Below, one piece after another: positions 33,070 to 53,171 of a stretch of 64,000 bases of DNA. The stretch lies in the NCBI GenBank assembly GCA_963760795.1, contig CAVXEP010000030.1, positions 178,819 to 242,818 of the forward strand. The letters run 5' to 3'. Under the pieces are notes generated by a model, which ran no database searches, was not told the DNA's origin, and saw nothing but the letters and a program-made list of their open reading frames with translations. How positions within the stretch are numbered: position 1 is the stretch's first letter; each line of letters opens with the position of its first letter. The translations under genes and the position numbers were made by a program. Source of the stretch: an uncultured delta proteobacterium. GTDB taxonomy: Bacteria; Desulfobacterota; Binatia; UBA9968.

Positions 33070-33669
33070 TTATTGTCTTAGAAAACTACGGACATCCTTC
33101 AGCACCACCTTCGCATCCGGCGCTGGGCCAAGATAGGCCACCCGCATTTTACCCTGGCGATCGACCACCGCCGTCAATGGCGTGTGATCCACCAAGCCCC
33201 GGGCCTTGCGCTTCACGCCCACGCCAAAATTCTTCCAGACCTTTTGCAGCGCCGCCTGATCGCCGGAAAGAAACGACCAATTGGTAAAATCTGCGCCATA
33301 GCGTTTGCCATAACCTGCAAGCACCTTCGGCGAGTCGATTTCCGGATCGGTTGTGATGGTAAGCAAGAACACTTTCGTGCGTTCGTCGGGAGTCAAGCCG
33401 CTCTGCACCTGACGCAGCGCCGCCGTGATCAACGGACAAATATCGGGGCATGTCGTATAAGCGAACGCCACGACAACAACACGCCCCGTCAACTTGGAGA
33501 ATTGGAACTCTCGCGAATTTTGATCGACCAGAGTAAAATCACTGATTGGGATATACACCTCACGACGCTCAACGGTTTTTTGCTGGACCTCGTGCGCAAA
33601 TGTTTCAACTCTGATGAGGTTAGTGGAAAGCGCCAGGGCCAGGAGGCAATGAGTTAAGCGCAATTTCAC
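33070..33669 (-). CDS. SCO family copper chaperone (1 of 3)
   Basis: YTTCPDICP, TTDPEID, LVDHT. The GTG start overlaps the upstream TGA. Confidence 0.9.
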   Translation of the reverse strand: MKLRLTHCLLALALSTNLIRVETFAHEVQQKTVERREVYIPISDFTLVDQNSREFQFSKLTGRVVVVAFAYTTCPDICPLITAALRQVQSGLTPDERTKVFLLTITTDPEIDSPKVLAGYGKRYGADFTNWSFLSGDQAALQKVWKNFGVGVKRKARGLVDHTPLTAVVDRQGKMRVAYLGPAPDAKVVLKDVRSFLRQ

Positions 33670-34097
33670 GGCTTCTTCTCCGGCGGATCGTCCAACCCCA
33701 ACACCGCTTCCCATGGGATACTGCAATGCGCTGTGATCAAGGTATCGTACTTCTCCCACCAAGCGAGATCGCGCCCCTCCCGGCTTAGAAATCGAACCAT
33801 CTGTAGCATATCGTTGACTTCCGATGGCCGCAGCGCCGGATCGAAAGCTGGCATGGAACCTTTGCCCTCGGCAATCACTTTTCTAATCTGGCTGTTGCTT
33901 TTGCGCTGCACGGTCTCGCGAAAATCCGGCGGCGGCGTTTCCAACGAAGCGGCAATCTGTCCATCGCCACGTCCGCCTGGGCCATGACAGCTAGCACAGC
34001 GTTGGCCGTAGATCAGGTCCATGCGTTCATTGCGGCCACATCCGGCGCCAAAGACACAAAGGAATACCGAAGTTGCAATTAGGCCAAACGAACTCAC
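33666..34097 (-). CDS. Monoheme c-type cytochrome, probable lipoprotein
   Basis: CASCHG, distal Met in SMPAF, lipobox-like FGAGC. Start uncertain. Confidence 0.8.
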   Translation of the reverse strand: MSSFGLIATSVFLCVFGAGCGRNERMDLIYGQRCASCHGPGGRGDGQIAASLETPPPDFRETVQRKSNSQIRKVIAEGKGSMPAFDPALRPSEVNDMLQMVRFLSREGRDLAWWEKYDTLITAHCSIPWEAVLGLDDPPEKKP

Positions 34098-34157
34098 GTC
34101 ACTAGACCTAGCACAGCGAATCGACGCAACCAACTGAGCGGTAAGCGCGTGGAAAGT

Positions 34158-34184
34158 TTGACACAGATTTAGAATTTGTGTTAC
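34158..34184. promoter_or_regulatory. Candidate NikR operator 1, overlapping a TTGACA -35 element
   Basis: TTGACAC-13 bp AT-rich-GTGTTAC imperfect palindrome upstream of nikR. Confidence 0.55.
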
Positions 34185-34204
34185 GTAATTCGTCAAGGAA
34201 TCCT

Positions 34205-34621
34205 ATGCATCATCTATCGCGTTTTGGCGTTTCGCTGGAAGAAGATCTGTTGGCCGCTTTCGATCTGAGCATCGGCGGCATGGGCTACCAGAATCGTTCG
34301 GAGGCGATTCGCGATCTAATTCGGGACCATCTGATCCAGAAGAAAGTCGGCCAGAGCGACAGCGAGGTTATCGGCGTTGTCACACTGGTGTACGACCATC
34401 GAATTCACCACCTTAGCGATGTTCTCGCCGACATGCAGCACAAAGCTTCGGTGGCCGTGAATGCCAGCCTACATATTCATCTCGACGAGCATAATTGCTT
34501 GGAGGTCATCGTCATTCGCGGCCGCGCCGACAAGGTCCATGAAGTTGCCAGCAAGCTAATCGCGACTAAGGGGGTACAGAACGGCAAGCTGGTCACCACG
34601 ACGCCGGAGATGAACCACTAA
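34205..34621 (+). CDS. nikR: Nickel-responsive regulator NikR
   Basis: RFGVSL, GYQNRSEAIRDLIRD (ribbon-helix-helix), LVYDH, QH, LHIHLDEHNCLEV. Confidence 0.95.
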   Translation: MHHLSRFGVSLEEDLLAAFDLSIGGMGYQNRSEAIRDLIRDHLIQKKVGQSDSEVIGVVTLVYDHRIHHLSDVLADMQHKASVAVNASLHIHLDEHNCLEVIVIRGRADKVHEVASKLIATKGVQNGKLVTTTPEMNH

Positions 34622-51011: not shown

Positions 51012-51171
51012 GCGCGGTATTATCTCTCGTGCGGATGCGTTCTAGCTAGCCAACTCTAACAGTGAAAATAATTCATCGCCCGGATTGTAAGATCATCGCG
51101 ATTTCCGCTCGGTGCTCTACACAAATGCCGAATTAACCGATAAAATTCATTGTCGGTCATTGCCACTCCCT

Positions 51172-51819
51172 ATGAACGATCCGAAAACCCGTTTCTTCCT
51201 GCTCGGCGCCGCCGTCATCGTCATGGGTGTGATTCTCGGCACGATGCTGTGGCTGAAACTCGGACCGCCAACCCGGCTGTTGCTTGCGGATGGCACTGGC
51301 GATGACGGTTTGAAGGACTACGGGCCGGTTCCGGATTTCAAATTGACCGAGCGCGATGGCACCGATATGGATCTGGCTCAGCTGCGCGGCAAAATTTGGA
51401 TTGCCGATTTTATTTACACGACCTGCACCGATACCTGTCCTTTGCAGACGGCGGCGATGGCTGAGCTGCAGAAAGAGTTCGCGGCGAACACGGAAGTCCA
51501 ATTAGTTTCGGTCAGTGTCGACCCGGATCGGGACACGCCGCAAGTGCTGAGCGCCTACGCCGACAAACATGCAGCCGATCGGCGCCGCTGGTATTTTCTC
51601 ACCGGCCAGCGGGATCAGGTTATTAAGCTCGTCCGCGACGGCTTTCATCTGAGCGTCGCGGCGTTTCCCGATAGCGCCGAGCAAAGCGACATGATTCCGC
51701 ATAGCCCGCGCTTTGTGTTAATTGACCAACAAGCGCAGATCCGCGGCTACTACGACAGTCGCGCAATCGATGGGCTCGCGCGGCTTAGAAACGACATTAA
51801 AACTTTATTAAAAGGATGA
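51172..51819 (+). CDS. SCO family protein (3 of 3)
   Basis: N-terminal TM, FIYTTCTDTCP, SVDPDRDTP, IPHSPRF. Confidence 0.9.
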   Translation: MNDPKTRFFLLGAAVIVMGVILGTMLWLKLGPPTRLLLADGTGDDGLKDYGPVPDFKLTERDGTDMDLAQLRGKIWIADFIYTTCTDTCPLQTAAMAELQKEFAANTEVQLVSVSVDPDRDTPQVLSAYADKHAADRRRWYFLTGQRDQVIKLVRDGFHLSVAAFPDSAEQSDMIPHSPRFVLIDQQAQIRGYYDSRAIDGLARLRNDIKTLLKG

Positions 51820-51822
51820 TCG

Positions 51823-52695
51823 ATGGCTAGCGAAAAGAAAAAACCCAAAGCTAAACAACCGGCGAAAGCGCTCCTGCGCGATGGCCCCAACTGGCCGCTC
51901 TTTACCCTGGCGGCGTTGGGCATGATCTTATCCGCTTATCTCACCTACACCGCGTGGGCCGAGAAGCTCGTCGCATTTTGCGTCCAAGGCAGCGGCTGCG
52001 ATGTCGTATTGAACAGCCGCTGGTCGACGCTGTTCGGCATGCCGGTTTCTTTCTGGGGATTTTTAACCTACGGCCTGCTCGCCGCGGTGGCCTGGAACCG
52101 CTACGCGGATAACCAATGGCGCTGGGCATGGGTGATTTCGCTCTTCGGACTGCTTTTTAGTCTCTACCTGACGGCTATCGCATTCTTTGAACTCAAGGCG
52201 GCCTGCCCCTATTGCCTCACGTCCCTCGGGCTTATGGCGGTCATCTTTGTAATGACCACCTTGCAAAAGCCCAAAAATCTACCGAATTTTGCCTGGGGTC
52301 CGTGGTTGGGCAAGACTGTCGGCGTTGGCGCCGCGGTGATCGTCGCGCTGCATCTCTATTTCGCCGGCTACTGGGGCAGCGCTCCCGGCCCCGAAGATCC
52401 CTGGGTCAAAGGTCTGGCAGAGCACTTGACGAAAACCGAGGCCAAGTTTTATGGCGCTTCCTGGTGTCCGCACTGCCAAGAACAGAAAAAACTATTCGGC
52501 AGCTCGATCAATCGCATTCCCTACGTCGAGTGCAGTCCAGGCGGCTCACAGGGACCGCTTGCGGCAATTTGCAAAGAGAAGGATATCAAAAATTATCCGA
52601 CCTGGATCATTAACGGACAGCGTACCACCGGCGTCCAATCCTTGGATACGTTAGCGCAAATGAGCAAATATGTCGCCCAGGGAGGAAAACCATGA
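51823..52695 (+). CDS. VKOR-thioredoxin fusion disulfide-bond formation protein
   Basis: CVQGSGCDVVLNSRWS, CPYC, then YGASWCPHC...YVEC...C...YPTW. Confidence 0.92.
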   Translation: MASEKKKPKAKQPAKALLRDGPNWPLFTLAALGMILSAYLTYTAWAEKLVAFCVQGSGCDVVLNSRWSTLFGMPVSFWGFLTYGLLAAVAWNRYADNQWRWAWVISLFGLLFSLYLTAIAFFELKAACPYCLTSLGLMAVIFVMTTLQKPKNLPNFAWGPWLGKTVGVGAAVIVALHLYFAGYWGSAPGPEDPWVKGLAEHLTKTEAKFYGASWCPHCQEQKKLFGSSINRIPYVECSPGGSQGPLAAICKEKDIKNYPTWIINGQRTTGVQSLDTLAQMSKYVAQGGKP

Positions 52696-53171
52696 AACCA
52701 ACCGCATCGGTAATATTATTGTATGGTTGGTGCGCCCCGGTCGCGCTGGCTTTGATACTCCTGGTTGCCCCAGCGGCCAATGCCGATCCGTCGAAGTATC
52801 CCGAGTATGCCCAACAGACTCTGCCGGCCGATGTCACGCCGGAGTTTGTCGGCATCGATCAACTGGTTGCCGACATCAAAGCGGGCGCTAAACCGGTTCT
52901 TCTAGACGTCCGCACCAAAGAGGAGTTCGACGAGGTACATATCATAGGCGCCCAATCGGTCCCTTTGGGAGAATTTAAAGAATTCTTAAAAAGCATTCCG
53001 CGCGACCGGCCGGTGGTACTCTATTGAGCTTGCCCCCATCACCTGGCCAGTTTGGCCTATGGCATGCTCCACGAAAACGGCTATCGCAACATGAAAGTGC
53101 TCGATGAAGGCATCGTCGGCTGGTATCAAAAACGCTATCCCATGGAAGGAAGCAAGGTTCCGCGCTCTTAA
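52692..53171 (+). CDS. Exported rhodanese-domain protein, probable selenoprotein (UGA 53025-53027)
   Basis: LLDVRTKEEFDEVHIIGA...PVVLY-TGA-ACPHHLASLAYGMLHENGYRNMKVLDEGIVGW completes the rhodanese fold in frame to TAA 53169-53171. Confidence 0.85.
53028..53069 (+). promoter_or_regulatory. Candidate bacterial SECIS element
   Basis: GGCCA-GTT-TGGCC apical hairpin starting 17 nt after UGA with G first in the loop. It can be extended by CCAT/ATGG or GCTTGCC/GGCATGC. Confidence 0.55.

What the first reader, a model, noticed from the sequence alone, without database searches (positions are those of the whole stretch)
33070..53171. Top candidate system: ~20-kb NikR-headed metal acquisition and periplasmic metallation cluster
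Seen: cytochrome c and SCO divergent from nikR, then one co-oriented run: TBDT, MFS, TonB, His-rich MTase, GHHAH protein, RAPP leader 1, DUF4198, CopC, CopD fusion, RAPP leader 2, sialidase-like propeller (CECC, CPH), TlpA, three Cox11-like paralogs, MTase, two SCO, DUF4382-like, VKOR-Trx and Sec-rhodanese. Established: NikR and DUF4198 are nickel/cobalt-associated, while CopCD, SCO and Cox11 handle copper. No oxidase, hydrogenase or urease client is present. Inference: a two-layer regulated pathway (transcriptional NikR plus translational arrest peptides) that imports metal and loads exported proteins under thiol/selenol redox control. I know of no description of this combination.
Basis: partly seen in the sequence, partly recalled or inferred. 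Interest (0 to 1): 0.82.

Follow-up and report, generated by a model that had tools for sequence, protein, structure and literature searches.

The report
Metal uptake and copper-chaperone gene supercluster
A 20-kb run of genes in an uncultured soil bacterium joins a nickel-type repressor, an outer-membrane importer, copper-chaperone-like proteins and two small ribosome-stalling leader genes of a recently described metal-sensing kind; the parts are mostly known kinds, but this conserved combination is untested.

Summary
The gene list is confirmed almost item by item (Pfam).

The two 'RAPP leaders' are divergent members of a known family, DUF2946 (CruR/CutF). These are nascent-peptide metal sensors that stall the ribosome (PMC9426467, PMC9973294, PMC12992588). 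Here the CxxC motif is replaced by an invariant PHRVHH plus one Cys at the CruR-like spacing. This scan has noted CruR-like leaders in at least 28 other genomes.

NikR is orthodox and has a delta-proteobacterial-type NikR box upstream. The TGA-rhodanese is a credible selenoprotein.

The three 'Cox11-like' proteins have the Cox11 fold but lack the CFCF copper motif. Orthologues in sister families keep it.

In this assembly the receptor, MFS and leader 1 carry 1-nt frameshifts, probably assembly errors. ExbB/ExbD is really deleted.

Best reading: three co-conserved, separately regulated metal-supply units, not one linear pathway. The metal is unresolved (copper favoured for the chaperone units, nickel for the uptake unit). 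Verdict: new variant of a known kind.

The parts
33070..33762 (-). SCO1/SenC-type thioredoxin-fold metallochaperone (SCOa), with CxxxC and a downstream His
   Evidence: PF02630 E=5e-27. The CPDIC motif is seen in the translation. It is conserved next to the cytochrome c in G003, G013, G014, G021 and L022.
33666..34196 (-). Small class-I c-type cytochrome (CxxCH), divergent from nikR. The true start is probably internal to this ORF.
   Evidence: PF13442 E=3e-10. Relatives align only from residue ~30-52 of the ORF.
34158..34184 (.). NikR-box-like inverted repeat TTGACAC-N13-GTGTTAC, ending 20 nt upstream of the likely nikR start (34205)
   Evidence: It has 2 mismatches to GTAACAC-N13-GTGTTAC and is the best site in the window. 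That consensus comes from PMC545781 (passages). The element is conserved upstream of nikR in 6 of 6 genus loci. The window-wide count is not above chance: 2 found against 0.9 expected.
34178..34621 (+). NikR, a nickel-responsive ribbon-helix-helix repressor (likely start 34205)
   Evidence: PF08753 and PF01402. NCBIfam equivalog NF003381 scores 175 bits against a cut-off of 105. The QH...HIH...C motif aligns with solved NikRs 2bj1 and 2ca9.
34680..36731 (+). TonB-dependent outer-membrane receptor, read in this assembly as two ORFs because of three 1-nt insertions (35062, 35078, 35165)
   Evidence: Plug and barrel Pfam hits. Frame walk. Indels against G003. Contigs of related strains replace 35070-35170 by 96 letters, against 99 in the window. 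No sequence relative is found in the PDB.
36939..38199 (+). MFS transporter, split by one extra base near 37519
   Evidence: PF07690 hits on both halves. G003 has the two halves in one frame. Contigs of 4 runs spanning the place carry one letter fewer (the place is listed for X2, and one gap per spanning piece is reported for X1, X4 and X6).
38222..38503 (+). Remnant ORF fusing the ExbB N-terminus to the ExbD C-terminus (a deletion of about 0.7 kb)
   Evidence: Weak PF02472 hit on the C-terminal part. G013 has full ExbB and ExbD. G003 has an internally deleted ExbB.
38493..39317 (+). TonB
   Evidence: PF03544 E=9e-19.
39318..40052 (+). Class-I SAM methyltransferase with a His-rich N-terminus (likely start 39417). 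No signal peptide is seen.
   Evidence: Methyltransf_25/12/11 hits. It lies next to TonB in 9 related loci. It is absent in G013 and in contigs of runs X1, X2 and X6, which join 39286 to 40655.
40427..40843 (+). Exported 138-aa Ig-like protein with a GHHAH motif. The same domain is fused to the CopD C-terminus.
   Evidence: No Pfam hit at E<=0.01. The nearest Atlas clusters are Binatota hypothetical proteins, followed by Big_7. It is conserved just upstream of the leader in L023, L024, L027, L030 and L031.
41077..41443 (+). Leader 1: a CruR/CutF-like RAPP leader of the Lead1 type. It is frameshifted in this assembly near 41399 and ends IRAPPLV-stop.
   Evidence: The intact 122-aa orthologue in G003 is shown. 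Contigs of X2, X4 and X6 lack one letter at 41399. The search with alignment A1 finds it at E=3e-13.
41547..42371 (+). DUF4198 periplasmic metal-binding protein. Signal-peptide cleavage is predicted to leave an N-terminal His (AA|HDGW).
   Evidence: PF10670 E=2e-15. The N-terminal His is judged by inspection. Family members bind Ni (PMC12537917) or Zn (PMC12663993).
42328..42723 (+). CopC, with His as the first residue after the predicted cleavage site (WA|HAYP)
   Evidence: PF04234 E=1e-20. NF033814 scores 79 bits, below the cut-off of 95.
42720..43973 (+). CopD membrane protein fused to a C-terminal GHHAH Ig-like domain
   Evidence: PF05425 E=7e-19. The C-terminal ~100 residues are 66% identical to the stand-alone GHHAH homologue of G003 (tblastn).
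44035..44430 (+). Leader 2: an intact 131-aa CruR/CutF-like leader. It has an N-terminal membrane anchor, PHRVHH, a His-rich stretch, one invariant Cys, and SQRAPPLA-stop.
   Evidence: C exceeds G across the ORF and the first 40 nt after the stop.
44528..45952 (+). Lipoprotein with a sialidase-like beta-propeller (BNR) and invariant CECC and CPH motifs. It is the gene most often directly downstream of the leader.
   Evidence: Weak BNR_2/BNR_4 hits. The family is 70-90% identical across the 120 listed clusters. Invariant residues are listed. The AF2 model has pLDDT 78 and matches only generic sialidase folds. The last ~33 aa of the window ORF are unmatched by homologues.
45846..46418 (+). TlpA/ResA-like periplasmic thiol:disulfide oxidoreductase (WCxxC)
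   Evidence: AhpC-TSA and Redoxin hits. ResA and TlpA models match below their cut-offs.
46479..47360 (+). Cox11-like paralogue 1 (TM anchor + NTF2-like domain + Cox11-like domain; CGLL in place of CFCF)
   Evidence: PF04442 scores 28.2 bits against a cut-off of 25. The motif is read.
47443..48030 (+). Class-I methyltransferase-fold protein with an N-terminal signal/anchor-like segment. It resembles archaeal protein-lysine N-methyltransferases.
   Evidence: Pfam methyltransferase hits. NF041081 E=9.5e-39, 133 bits, below the cut-off of 200.
48076..48993 (+). Cox11-like paralogue 2 (CGFI in place of CFCF)
   Evidence: PF04442 scores 29.3 bits.
48990..49877 (+). Cox11-like paralogue 3 (CALL in place of CFCF; H236 and C252 are invariant in the family)
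   Evidence: PF04442 scores 41.7 bits. The AF2 model has pLDDT 88.7. The top PDB fold match is apoCox11 1so9, E=4.5e-6. The profile alignment to 1so9 puts C252 on the first Cys of CFCF.
49855..50475 (+). SCO1/SenC (SCOb)
   Evidence: PF02630 E=1e-29.
50454..51011 (+). DUF4382 lipoprotein-like protein. It is fused to the Cox11-like protein in a sister family.
   Evidence: PF14321 E=7e-10. Single-ORF Cox11-like::DUF4382 proteins are seen in G037 and G038. All 7 matching genomes of family f3 have open frames of 485-805 aa.
51112..51819 (+). SCO1/SenC (SCOc)
   Evidence: PF02630 E=6e-30.
51823..52695 (+). VKOR fused to a thioredoxin-like domain (a DsbB/DsbA-type oxidant)
   Evidence: PF07884 E=5e-26. 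The CPHC motif in the C-terminal part is read.
52692..53171 (+). Exported rhodanese with UGA (53025-53027) at the catalytic-Cys position (LY-U-A-C-P-H-H). A probable selenoprotein.
   Evidence: The frame stays open and homologous past the TGA. The TGA is kept in G003 and G013 and in G037 at 44% identity. tRNA-Sec, SelA and SelB are in the genome. The nearest model is NF041203 'rhodanese-related (seleno)protein', matched below its cut-off.

Best explanation
The region is a lineage-specific (Binatia-type) metal-supply supercluster. It is built from three co-conserved but separately regulated units, not one linear pathway.

Unit 1 (34158-40843): nikR with a NikR box, then a TonB-dependent receptor, an MFS permease, (ExbB/ExbD), TonB, a His-rich methyltransferase and an exported GHHAH protein. 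This is an uptake unit repressed by NikR when cytoplasmic nickel is sufficient. Relatives carry a ZnuABC-type importer in the same unit.

Unit 2 (41077-43973): leader 1, then DUF4198, CopC and CopD::GHHAH. This unit captures metal in the periplasm and passes it to a membrane protein.

Unit 3 (44035-53171): leader 2, then a Cys-rich BNR lipoprotein, TlpA, three Cox11-like proteins, an anchored methyltransferase-fold protein, two SCO proteins, DUF4382, VKOR-Trx and a Sec-rhodanese. This is a periplasmic thiol/selenol-redox and metallochaperone set. It most likely serves copper centres of enzymes encoded elsewhere, such as the three heme-copper oxidases.

The two leaders are divergent CruR/CutF (DUF2946-type) nascent-chain sensors. 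The N-terminal anchor is inserted co-translationally and the ribosome stalls at RAPP, two codons before the stop. Metal bound by PHRVHH, the His-rich stretch and the single Cys changes how long the stall lasts. That Cys sits 48 residues before RAPP, at the spacing of CruR's CxxC.

By analogy with CruR, a long stall at low metal would mask the C-rich leader RNA from Rho, so the downstream acquisition or chaperone genes are transcribed.

Shown here: gene identities, synteny, motif conservation, spacing, C>G skew, and the presence of Rho and the Sec machinery. Inferred: stalling, the Rho mechanism, the direction of the response, and the identity of the metal (copper about 55%, nickel about 25% for units 2 and 3).
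For: Gene identities: Pfam, NCBIfam.

Synteny:
- G003, G013 and G018 have the same order.
- In the 20 loci fetched with the leader profile, 11 have leader then BNR then TlpA where the DNA goes on. Six have leader then (a no-Pfam ORF or GHHAH) then DUF4198/CopC/CopD or BNR.
- The uptake genes lie upstream and the Cox11-like/SCO genes downstream wherever the flank reaches.
- An order-level core, (NikR)-ZnuABC-Cox11-like-DUF4382-SCO-VKOR(-Sec-rhodanese), is found in other families: G025, G037, G038.

Leaders:
- P31-H-R-V-H-H36, C78 and R126-A-P-P129 are invariant in 41 sequences at 34-90% identity.
- 31 of 41 give weak end-to-end PF11162 matches.
- Of the 150 best of 200 library hits, 136 have RAPP, 104 have exactly 2 residues after it, 130 have PHRVHH and 0 have CxxC. 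The Cys-to-Arg spacing is 48 in 95 and 49 in 15. In CruR, C90 to R139 is 49 (PMC9426467).
- RAPP codons vary synonymously: 3, 4, 4 and 4 codons at the four positions in 14 loci.
- Intergenic gaps are 90-230 nt.
- C is 0.31-0.40 against G 0.19-0.25 across the leader and the first 40 nt after the stop, with C>G in 16-18 of 18 loci per bin. The downstream coding region has C=G=0.29.
- Rho is present.

Published mechanism:
- CruR RAPP-dependent control with Rho (PMC9426467).
- Arrest and toeprint shown in vitro (PMC12992588).
- CutF, and His-type CutF-like clusters next to Ni/Co genes (PMC9973294).

NikR: with the consensus from PMC545781.

Clients elsewhere in the genome: three COX1 genes and one multicopper oxidase. 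The only PF04442 genes in the genome are the three here.
Against: - No expression, stalling or metal-binding data exist for any of these genes.
- The leaders score below Pfam's DUF2946 threshold (15.5 bits against 23.7 for leader 2) and lack CxxC/CxxxC.
- SD sequestration by the leader's 3' end is not above shuffles for the window's own leaders (95/300 and 38/300). It is clear in only 2 of 14 loci. Whole-region folds have z of -1.1 and -1.8.
- The C>G skew could come partly from His/Pro/Ala/Gln-rich coding.
- The three Cox11-like proteins lack the second Cys of CFCF, so copper handling by them is not assured.
- NikR, DUF4198 and His-type leaders point to nickel, while CopCD, SCO and Cox11 point to copper. 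No [NiFe]-hydrogenase and only a marginal urease match were found in this 88.9%-complete genome.
- The NikR-box-like site before the receptor has 4 mismatches in the window (by eye). It was not reported at <=3 mismatches.
- Promoter and terminator scans are near background, so the unit boundaries are inferred from leaders and gaps only.
- In this genome ExbB/ExbD is deleted, and the receptor, MFS and leader 1 read as frameshifted.
Confidence: 0.55

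Rival explanations
1. One reading: one integrated pathway for a single metal. The metal is imported by the TonB system and handed through the periplasmic proteins to an unidentified exported client, under joint NikR and leader control.
For: The same gene order, with uptake upstream and chaperones downstream, recurs in many species. 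NikR sits next to the Cox11-like/SCO/VKOR core even in another family, G025. The Cox11-like::DUF4382 fusion shows real functional coupling inside the core.
Against: - Each block has its own regulator: a NikR box only near nikR, and a leader in front of units 2 and 3.
- Modules come and go independently. G013 lacks unit 2 and the His-rich methyltransferase. G014 and G021 lack NikR and the receptor. L038 lacks BNR-TlpA. Several relatives add ZnuABC.
- The MFS and ABC importers deliver to the cytoplasm, not to periplasmic clients.
- ExbB/ExbD has decayed here while the rest is intact.
Confidence: 0.15
2. A nickel (or Ni/Co) system throughout. The leaders sense Ni(II) through a His3Cys-type site. 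DUF4198, CopCD, GHHAH, SCO and the CFCF-less Cox11-like proteins have been recruited to periplasmic nickel handling.
For: - NikR is orthodox.
- A DUF4198 protein binds Ni with a Kd of 18 nM, and the family neighbours TonB receptors and NikR_C regulators (PMC12537917).
- His-only CutF-like clusters sit next to HupE/UreJ (PMC9973294).
- The leaders have three invariant His and one Cys and no CxxC.
- The Cox11-like paralogues have lost the Cu(I) CFCF motif.
- NikR heads the core in G025.
Against: - CopC keeps the N-terminal His and the D-x-H typical of Cu(II) CopC (inspection; the ligand roles are recalled, not tested).
- All three SCOs keep CxxxC and His.
- Sister families keep CFCF.
- Relatives add MauG/MbnH-like and YtkA-like genes. 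PMC9426467 lists MbnPH-like genes among copper-operon neighbours; the YtkA-copper link is recalled.
- No hydrogenase and no clear urease were found. Other Ni enzymes were not searched.
Confidence: 0.15
3. The 'leaders' are ordinary small membrane-anchored metal-binding proteins (chaperones or sensors acting as mature proteins). Their RAPP C-terminus has a role other than ribosome arrest.
For: - PHRVHH, Cys78 and several mid-region positions are conserved far more than a mere export-monitoring leader needs.
- The family scores below the DUF2946 threshold.
- The SD-pairing test is weak.
Against: - RAPP is invariant at a fixed distance from the stop (104 of 136 with exactly 2 residues after it) and from the Cys, as in CruR.
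- RAPP-like sequences are reported as strongly excluded from bacterial proteomes except in arrest peptides (PMC12992588, abstract and passages).
- The leader is always the first gene, before a long gap.
Confidence: 0.1

Closest known systems
CruR (Bp2923) of Bordetella pertussis, prototype of Pfam DUF2946 (PMC9426467; arrest shown in PMC12992588)
   Same: - A small first gene of a metal-acquisition operon with an N-terminal export/anchor signal.
- RAPP lies 2-3 residues before the stop.
- The spacing from the metal-ligand Cys to RAPP is fixed (48-49 here, 49 from C90 in CruR).
- A long intergenic gap and C-rich leader RNA.
- Neighbours of the same kinds: TonB receptor, CopC, Sco, AhpC/TSA-type thioredoxins.
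   Different: - No CxxC. Instead there is an invariant PHRVHH just after the anchor, a His-rich stretch and one Cys.
- Scores are below the PF11162 gathering score.
- The immediate targets are a BNR lipoprotein or DUF4198, not a TonB receptor.
- The family is found here in Binatia-type genomes.
- Stalling, Rho dependence and the metal are untested.
CutF of Rhodobacter capsulatus and the CutF-like clusters (PMC9973294; bioRxiv 10.1101/2025.02.05.636593)
   Same: - A co-translationally exported nascent sensor whose metal motif lies ~45 residues before a C-terminal Pro motif.
- Some clusters use His-based sites and sit by Ni/Co genes.
   Different: - CutF uses CxxxC, and Cu prolongs the stall to melt a stem-loop over the next gene's ribosome-binding site, switching on a detoxifying oxidase.
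- Here the downstream genes are acquisition/chaperone types, and the SD-pairing test is weak.
- I could not see the paper's File S1 or Fig. S6, so I cannot say whether this subfamily is among its 29 clusters.
NikR-repressed TonB-dependent nickel uptake, and the DUF4198/TonB receptor/NikR_C neighbourhood (PMC12537917). The Helicobacter example is recalled, not read here.
   Same: NikR lies directly upstream of a TonB-dependent receptor with ExbBD-TonB, and a DUF4198 protein with a predicted N-terminal His lies nearby.
   Different: - In the window DUF4198 sits behind a RAPP leader and in front of CopC-CopD.
- The receptor has no sequence relative in the PDB.
- No nickel enzyme was identified in the genome by the two searches run.
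Cox11/CtaG + Sco + TlpA copper-centre assembly set of heme-copper oxidases
   Same: - Cox11 fold (1so9 top hit).
- Sco proteins with CxxxC and His.
- A TlpA-like reductant.
- Oxidase genes are present in the genome.
   Different: - There are three tandem Cox11-like paralogues, each with an added NTF2-like domain.
- Only the first Cys of CFCF is kept.
- The set is not next to oxidase genes.
- It is accompanied by DUF4382 (fused to it in a sister family), VKOR-Trx and a Sec-rhodanese.
- Copy numbers do not track COX1 copies.
Rhodanese-related (seleno)protein, NCBIfam NF041203 'rhodanese_LYCAU'
   Same: A small rhodanese domain with Sec in the active-site loop after L-Y.
   Different: - The order of Sec and Cys is swapped relative to what the model's name suggests: LY-U-A-C here, and LY-U-Q-C in G037.
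- The score is 55.9 bits against a cut-off of 115.
- The protein is exported (signal peptide) and embedded in a metallochaperone cluster.

Membership tests
CruR/CutF leader peptides (Pfam DUF2946, PF11162) | Match to PF11162 at or above the gathering score | tested here: not met
   Leader 2 scores E=0.029, 15.5 bits, against a cut-off of 23.7, though the match is end-to-end (residues 20-129 on profile positions 6-117). 31 of 41 family members match weakly, best E=7e-4. No hit over the cut-off is found anywhere in the genome.
CruR/CutF leader peptides (Pfam DUF2946, PF11162) | C-terminal RAPP / Pro-rich arrest motif a few residues before the stop | tested here: met
   RAPP is invariant in 41 of 41 aligned sequences. 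It is present in 18 of 22 DNA sources scanned and in 136 of the 150 best library hits, 104 of them with exactly 2 residues after it. The codons vary synonymously.
CruR/CutF leader peptides (Pfam DUF2946, PF11162) | CxxC (CruR) or CxxxC (CutF) metal-binding motif | tested here: not met
   0 of 150 sequences have CxxC. The aligned family has one invariant Cys (C78), followed by V-V-L, plus an invariant PHRVHH. CxxxC was not counted separately, but only one Cys column is invariant.
CruR/CutF leader peptides (Pfam DUF2946, PF11162) | Conserved spacing between the metal motif and the arrest motif | tested here: met
   The Cys-to-Arg(RAPP) spacing is 48 in 95 and 49 in 15 of the 116 sequences measured. 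In CruR, C90 to R139 is 49. In CutF it is about 45.
CruR/CutF leader peptides (Pfam DUF2946, PF11162) | N-terminal Sec signal or N-in/C-out anchor | tested here: inconclusive
   Basic residues followed by ~18 hydrophobic residues are conserved in the alignment. This was judged by eye; no signal or topology predictor was available.
CruR/CutF leader peptides (Pfam DUF2946, PF11162) | First gene of a metal-homeostasis operon, with a long intergenic gap | tested here: met
   Gaps are 90-230 nt. The downstream genes are BNR-TlpA, DUF4198-CopC-CopD, GHHAH or YtkA-like.
CruR/CutF leader peptides (Pfam DUF2946, PF11162) | Regulatory read-out: Rho-dependent termination (CruR) or an SD-masking stem-loop (CutF) | tested here: inconclusive
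   C>G is found in 16-18 of 18 loci per bin, and Rho is present. SD pairing with the leader's 3' end has a mean z of -0.93, with W2 at 95/300 and W1 at 38/300. Neither is a functional test.
CruR/CutF leader peptides (Pfam DUF2946, PF11162) | Ribosome arrest at RAPP, modulated by metal | not testable with these tools
   This needs in vitro translation or toeprinting, or reporters.
NikR | RHH DNA-binding domain plus NikR_C domain, at family-level score | tested here: met
   PF01402 and PF08753. NF003381 scores 175.3 bits against a cut-off of 105.
NikR | High-affinity Ni site ligands (His, His-x-His, Cys) | tested here: met
   'MQH', 'LHIHL' and 'NCLE' align column for column with 'LQH', 'LHVHM' and 'NCLE' of 2bj1, and with the equivalents of 2ca9. 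That these are the ligands is recalled, not read here.
NikR | NikR operator near regulated genes | tested here: inconclusive
   TTGACAC-N13-GTGTTAC lies at 34158-34184, with 2 mismatches to the reversed consensus of PMC545781, and is conserved in 6 of 6 genus loci. The site before the receptor is weak in the window and better in L035 (2 mismatches) and L023 (3). Binding was not tested.
Cox11/CtaG (PF04442) | Family-level sequence match and Cox11 fold | tested here: met
   The three paralogues score 28.2, 29.3 and 41.7 bits against a cut-off of 25. 1so9 is the top fold hit at E=4.5e-6, TM 0.66 on the target. The profile-to-1so9 match is E=4.7e-10.
Cox11/CtaG (PF04442) | CFCF Cu(I)-binding motif | tested here: not met
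   The window paralogues read C-G-L-L, C-G-F-I and C-A-L-L. In the alignment to 1so9, C252 pairs with the first Cys only. Orthologues in G025, G037 and G038 read CFCF.
SCO1/SenC | Thioredoxin fold with CxxxC and a distal His | tested here: met
   PF02630 E=5e-27 to 6e-30 for all three proteins. CPDIC, CPDVC and CTDTC plus a later His are seen.
Bacterial selenoprotein (Sec-rhodanese) | In-frame UGA at a catalytic Cys position, conserved in orthologues | tested here: met
   4 of 4 orthologues examined (window, G003, G013, G037) have TGA at the same column, with homology on both sides.
Bacterial selenoprotein (Sec-rhodanese) | Sec-decoding machinery in the genome | tested here: met
   tRNA-Sec(tca) on C13. 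SelA at 531 bits. SelB wing domain at 76 bits. SelD was not searched.
Bacterial selenoprotein (Sec-rhodanese) | SECIS hairpin just downstream of UGA | tested here: inconclusive
   A hairpin with a GGCCA/UGGCC upper stem ~20 nt after the UGA is predicted in the window, G003 and G013. A different fold is predicted in G037. No Rfam match is found in the cluster, and no SECIS-specific tool was run.
DUF4198 periplasmic metal-binding proteins | PF10670 match and an N-terminal His after signal cleavage | tested here: met
   57.8 bits against a cut-off of 34. The sequence reads ...SPLAA|HDGW; the cleavage site is judged by eye. 79% of the family has an N-terminal His according to PMC12537917.

The most novel reading that the evidence does not exclude
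The PHRVHH-plus-one-Cys leaders may form a His3Cys site, the ligand set of NikR's own nickel site, between the membrane surface and the Cys emerging from SecY. They would then sense periplasmic Ni(II) or Cu(II) co-translationally.

The order-wide core NikR-ZnuABC-Cox11-like(::DUF4382)-SCO-VKOR-Sec-rhodanese would not be an oxidase-assembly set. It would be a periplasmic thiol/selenol-dependent line that captures metal and hands it to an importer. That would give Cox11/Sco folds and DUF4382 a new job, and give NikR a copper-chaperone-like regulon.
Probability: 0.12. Interest if true: 0.8.

Novelty: new variant of a known kind. Interest (0 to 1): 0.5.

Why it matters
Metal-sensing by a nascent peptide (CruR, CutF) is only a few years old and has two studied prototypes, both cysteine-based and both from Proteobacteria.

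- **A new leader subfamily.** About 200 library representatives at 50% identity swap CxxC for PHRVHH plus one Cys, yet keep the RAPP position and the Cys-RAPP spacing. That spacing is therefore the mechanistic constant. The subfamily offers a natural test of how ligand chemistry sets metal specificity.
- **A regulator-chaperone puzzle.** The cluster ties a textbook nickel regulator to copper-chaperone folds across a bacterial order.
- **First context for two unknown families.** DUF4382 is fused to a Cox11-like protein in a sister family. The highly conserved Cys-rich BNR lipoprotein is the main leader-controlled gene.
- **An exported Sec-rhodanese** is added to the periplasmic redox repertoire.

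None of this is shown experimentally, and the organism is uncultured.

Tried and rejected
- **SD sequestration (CutF-type).** Folds of both window leaders pair the RAPP region or the codons just upstream with the next gene's SD. Duplex energies are not better than dinucleotide shuffles for the window (95/300, 38/300). They are clearly better in only 2 of 14 loci. I do not use this as support. A first, heavier control timed out.
- **'Three Cox11-like paralogues for three oxidases'.** COX1 matches per genome (1-5 in the genus) do not track Cox11-like matches. For example, G021 has 1 against 3 and G013 has 2 against 3. G026, G028 and G030 have COX1 but no Cox11-like match.
- **Function of the BNR propeller from its fold.** Only generic sialidase or lectin propellers match, at ~13% identity.
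- **GHHAH domain identity.** No Pfam family matches even at E<=10 beyond noise. The Atlas gives only Binatota hypothetical proteins, then Big_7.
- **Receptor specificity.** No PDB relative by sequence. NCBIfam gives only generic TonB models.
- **Copper monooxygenase as client.** No AmoA/PmoA match was found, but the control rang nowhere, so this says nothing.
- **Nickel clients.** No [NiFe]-hydrogenase. The urease-alpha match is marginal at 22.6 bits. Other Ni enzymes were not searched.
- **Promoter/terminator scan.** Results are near shuffled expectation.
- **Habitat from sequencing runs.** All shares were <=0.17 of the words. I used the runs only to look at indels and make no habitat claim. 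Bins 38344-38811 had no cover in any of the four runs; this says nothing.
- **Supplements of PMC9973294.** The cluster lists and logos were not among the 3 small files held.
- **Earlier findings.** A search of this scan's earlier findings near this place and by leader sequence gave nothing.

Full report
**Observation**

ORF listing and Pfam give the following.

- On the minus strand: an SCO1/SenC protein (33070-33762) and a small c-type cytochrome (33666-34196).
- On the plus strand, first part: NikR, a TonB-dependent receptor, an MFS permease, TonB, a His-rich class-I methyltransferase and a 138-aa exported 'GHHAH' protein without a family.
- Second part: DUF4198, CopC, and CopD carrying a second GHHAH domain.
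- Third part: a BNR-type propeller lipoprotein, a TlpA/ResA-like thioredoxin, three PF04442 (Cox11) proteins interrupted by a second methyltransferase, SCO, DUF4382, SCO, VKOR-thioredoxin, and a rhodanese whose frame runs through a TGA.

The flanks are housekeeping genes, and an rRNA operon lies at 22091-27579.

- Leader 1's RAPP is out of frame with its start.
- The receptor carries three 1-nt insertions and the MFS one, relative to the closest relative.
- A 93-aa ORF at 38222-38503 is what is left of ExbB and ExbD.
- The BNR ORF runs ~33 residues past where its homologues end.

**Are the frameshifts real?**

G000 is a 6.58-Mb genome in 35 contigs, 88.9% complete. A gene outside the cluster, cinA, is also frameshifted.

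Three of the five extra bases lie at or beside GATC (by eye). That pattern is typical of systematic base-calling error; this is my inference.

Contigs of related strains from four public runs carry one letter fewer near 37522 and 41399. They replace 35070-35170 by 96 letters against 99 in the window. These are other strains, 90-99% alike, so they show only that the extra letters are peculiar to this assembly.

I treat the frameshifts as probable errors. The ExbB/ExbD loss is different:

- G013 has both genes whole.
- G003 has an internally deleted ExbB.
- The window has the larger deletion.

So the cluster's own energising pair has decayed in this lineage.

**Organism and conservation**

Record titles of related loci name uncultured 'delta proteobacterium' and Candidatus Binatia MAGs.

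A Cox11-like query finds matches in 34 of 41 genomes of the order. By family, without G000, that is 23/24, 3/5 and 7/11. The tally includes G004, which is unpublished.

G003, G013 and G018 have the window's gene order. In the 20 loci fetched with the leader profile (43 pattern matches, 21 confirmed):

- The leader is followed directly by BNR-TlpA in 11 loci.
- It is followed by DUF4198-CopC-CopD in 3 loci (L034, L036, L038).
- In 2 loci it is followed by a ~315-aa ORF without a family and then CopC-DUF4198-CopC-CopD.
- In 1 locus it is followed by GHHAH-BNR.
- In G014 it is followed by GHHAH.

Receptor-MFS-TonB-methyltransferase lies upstream and Cox11-like/SCO/DUF4382 downstream wherever the flank reaches.

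Modules vary between genomes:

- G013 lacks unit 2 and the His-rich methyltransferase.
- G014 and G021 lack NikR and the receptor.
- Four loci insert a ZnuABC-type importer before the leader.
- G003 inserts a second receptor with a PepSY_TM protein.

In other families of the order a smaller core persists:

- G025 has NikR-ZnuA-ZnuC-ZnuB-Cox11-like-DUF4382-SCO-VKOR.
- G037 and G038 have ABC genes, a single ORF fusing Cox11-like to DUF4382, SCO and VKOR.
- G037 also has the rhodanese.

**The leaders**

Leader 2 has 65 relatives among candidates sharing words. An alignment of 41 sequences at 34-90% identity shows invariant P-H-R-V-H-H (31-36), C78 and R-A-P-P (126-129), with 'SQRAPPL' nearly invariant and one more residue before the stop.

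A profile search of 1.84 billion representatives finds 200 proteins at E<=0.001. Of the 150 listed:

- 136 have RAPP.
- 104 have exactly two residues after RAPP.
- 130 have PHRVHH.
- None has CxxC.
- The Cys-to-Arg spacing is 48 in 95 and 49 in 15.

RAPP is encoded by varying synonymous codons, so selection acts on the peptide. Pfam gives weak but end-to-end DUF2946 matches in 31 of 41 members, all below the gathering score.

DUF2946 is the family of CruR and CutF. I read the following:

- **Roy et al. 2022** (PMC9426467; abstract, passages and section 10). CruR has an export signal, CxxC at 90-93 and RAPP at 139-142. RAPP is needed for expression of the downstream TonB receptor. Copper relieves the arrest and Rho terminates in a 162-nt gap. 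The rut site maps to a C>G region of cruR. Homologues head operons with TonB receptors, PepSY_TM, Sco, PCuAC, YcnI, CopC, MbnPH-like and AhpC/TSA genes.
- **Fujiwara et al. 2025** (PMC12992588; abstract in the listing, passages). CruR arrests in vitro, with the toeprint at the two Pro codons. RAPP-like sequences are depleted from proteomes.
- **Ozturk et al. 2023** (PMC9973294; passages and section 11) and the 2025 preprint (passages). CutF senses periplasmic copper through CxxxC, 45 residues before its Pro motif, and unmasks the next gene's ribosome-binding site. There are 29 sequence clusters with Cys, His or mixed sites, and the His-only clusters sit next to HupE/UreJ.

The window's leaders fit this family in architecture, position, RAPP placement and spacing. 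They differ in ligand set.

As in cruR, C exceeds G throughout the leader and the first 40 nt after the stop, in 16-18 of 18 loci per bin. The downstream genes have C=G. Rho is present.

A CutF-type stem-loop is not supported. Pairing of the leader's 3' end with the next SD is no better than shuffles for the window's leaders and is clear in 2 of 14 loci.

I therefore favour CruR-like logic: the stall persists at low metal, Rho is blocked, and the acquisition genes are transcribed. This remains inference.

This scan has already noted CruR-like RAPP leaders in at least 28 other genomes, several before ZnuA/ABC-3 importers. None shares sequence with this one.

**NikR**

The protein passes NCBI's NikR equivalog model. 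It aligns with solved NikRs with the His, His-x-His and Cys columns kept. That these are the ligands is recalled, not read here.

Twenty bases upstream of its likely start lies TTGACAC-N13-GTGTTAC. This is two mismatches from the reversed delta-proteobacterial NikR box reported by Rodionov et al. 2004 (PMC545781, passages). It is the best such site in the window and is conserved in 6 of 6 genus loci.

A weaker half-conserved site precedes the receptor. It has GTAACAC in 4 of 6 loci, with 4 mismatches overall in the window. No such site precedes the leaders. NikR thus plausibly controls itself, the divergent cytochrome c-SCO pair and the uptake unit, but not units 2 and 3.

**The chaperone-like proteins**

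An AlphaFold model of paralogue 3 (pLDDT 88.7) shows a membrane anchor, an NTF2-like domain and a C-terminal sandwich. The best PDB match of that sandwich is apoCox11.

A profile alignment puts the invariant C252 on the first Cys of Cox11's CFCF, with the second replaced by Leu. The other two paralogues read CGLL and CGFI. Orthologues in G025, G037 and G038 keep CFCF.

So the ancestor was a Cox11-type protein, and the genus triplicated it and changed the site. These are the only PF04442 genes in the genome, which has three COX1 genes elsewhere. Copy numbers do not co-vary across relatives.

The three SCOs keep CxxxC and His. DUF4198 and CopC both expose a His as predicted first residue. DUF4198 proteins are now known to bind Ni (PMC12537917, passages) or Zn (PMC12663993, abstract), and the former paper reports TonB receptors and NikR_C regulators as typical neighbours.

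The BNR lipoprotein is unusually constrained, at 70-90% identity where the leader is ~40%. It has invariant CECC and CPH, but its fold is uninformative.

**Selenocysteine**

The TGA sits where rhodaneses have the catalytic Cys. Homology continues beyond it.

The same TGA is present in G003, G013 and G037 at 44% identity. The genome has tRNA-Sec, SelA and SelB.

The nearest NCBI model is a 'rhodanese-related (seleno)protein', matched below its cut-off. A downstream hairpin is predicted but was not tested with a SECIS tool.

**What it most likely is**

The region holds three co-conserved units with their own regulators:

- A NikR-controlled outer-membrane/inner-membrane uptake unit.
- A leader-controlled DUF4198-CopCD capture unit.
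- A leader-controlled periplasmic redox and chaperone unit.

The families split between nickel (NikR, DUF4198, His-type leaders) and copper (CopCD, SCO, Cox11, TlpA; MauG/MbnH-like and YtkA-like genes in relatives). I cannot resolve the metal.

**Literature**

I found no description of this cluster or of a PHRVHH-type leader in four searches:

- RAPP / arrest peptide
- Binatota / Binatia / copper
- CruR / DUF2946
- DUF4198

The cluster lists in the supplements of PMC9973294 were not available to me, so this subfamily may be among that paper's 29 clusters.

**Verdict**

This is a new variant of a known kind, of moderate interest.

Noticed in passing
window 22091-27579 (-): A complete rRNA operon (16S, two tRNAs, 23S, 5S) lies about 5.5 kb upstream of the cluster. 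It explains the ORF-poor, low-GC, strongly skewed stretch.
   Followed up: yes
window ~62150-62250 (+), cinA: The CinA C-terminal domain continues in another reading frame after '...IAGSS'. This is a frameshift in a gene unrelated to the cluster, and it suggests that indel errors are general in this assembly.
   Followed up: partly
window 47443-48030 (+): This methyltransferase-fold protein resembles archaeal protein-lysine N-methyltransferases (NF041081, E=9.5e-39, below cut-off). It carries an N-terminal signal/anchor-like segment that would place it outside the cytoplasm, where SAM is not expected. It is conserved inside the Cox11-like block in most relatives. This is unexplained.
   Followed up: no
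L044 (G037) 7685-9403 (-) and L045 (G038) ~8360-9660 (+): In a sister family the Cox11-like protein (with CFCF) and DUF4382 are one ORF. All 7 genomes of that family with a match have open frames of 485-805 aa. This gives the uncharacterised DUF4382 family a functional partner.
   Followed up: partly
L033 8457-9401, L037 1671-2621, L038 ~5418: A ~315-aa exported protein without any Pfam match sits between Lead1-type leaders and CopC in three relatives. Its mature N-terminus is predicted to start H-A-H-G-(V/I)-I-G-K-R-F-I-P. It is absent from the window.
   Followed up: no
L011 (G003) 8811-15902: The closest relative has a 7-kb insertion between tlpA and the first Cox11-like gene. It carries a second TonB-dependent receptor, a PepSY_TM protein and a DsrE-like protein. 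The receptor and PepSY_TM protein are the pair that follows CruR in Bordetella.
   Followed up: no
L040 4366-5106 and L041 7995-8384: These are distant leader relatives ending HHSRAPPHLI-stop, with three residues after RAPP, in other Binatia genomes. In L040 the next gene encodes a His-rich YtkA-like domain protein.
   Followed up: partly
window 45850-45952: The BNR ORF extends ~33 residues beyond the end of its homologues and overlaps the tlpA start. The extension has pLDDT below 50. It may be another indel or a lost stop codon.
   Followed up: no
window 35062, 35078, 37519: Three of the five frameshifting extra bases lie at or beside GATC in the window or in G003's version of the site. This might reflect methylation-linked base-calling error, which is my speculation.
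   Followed up: no
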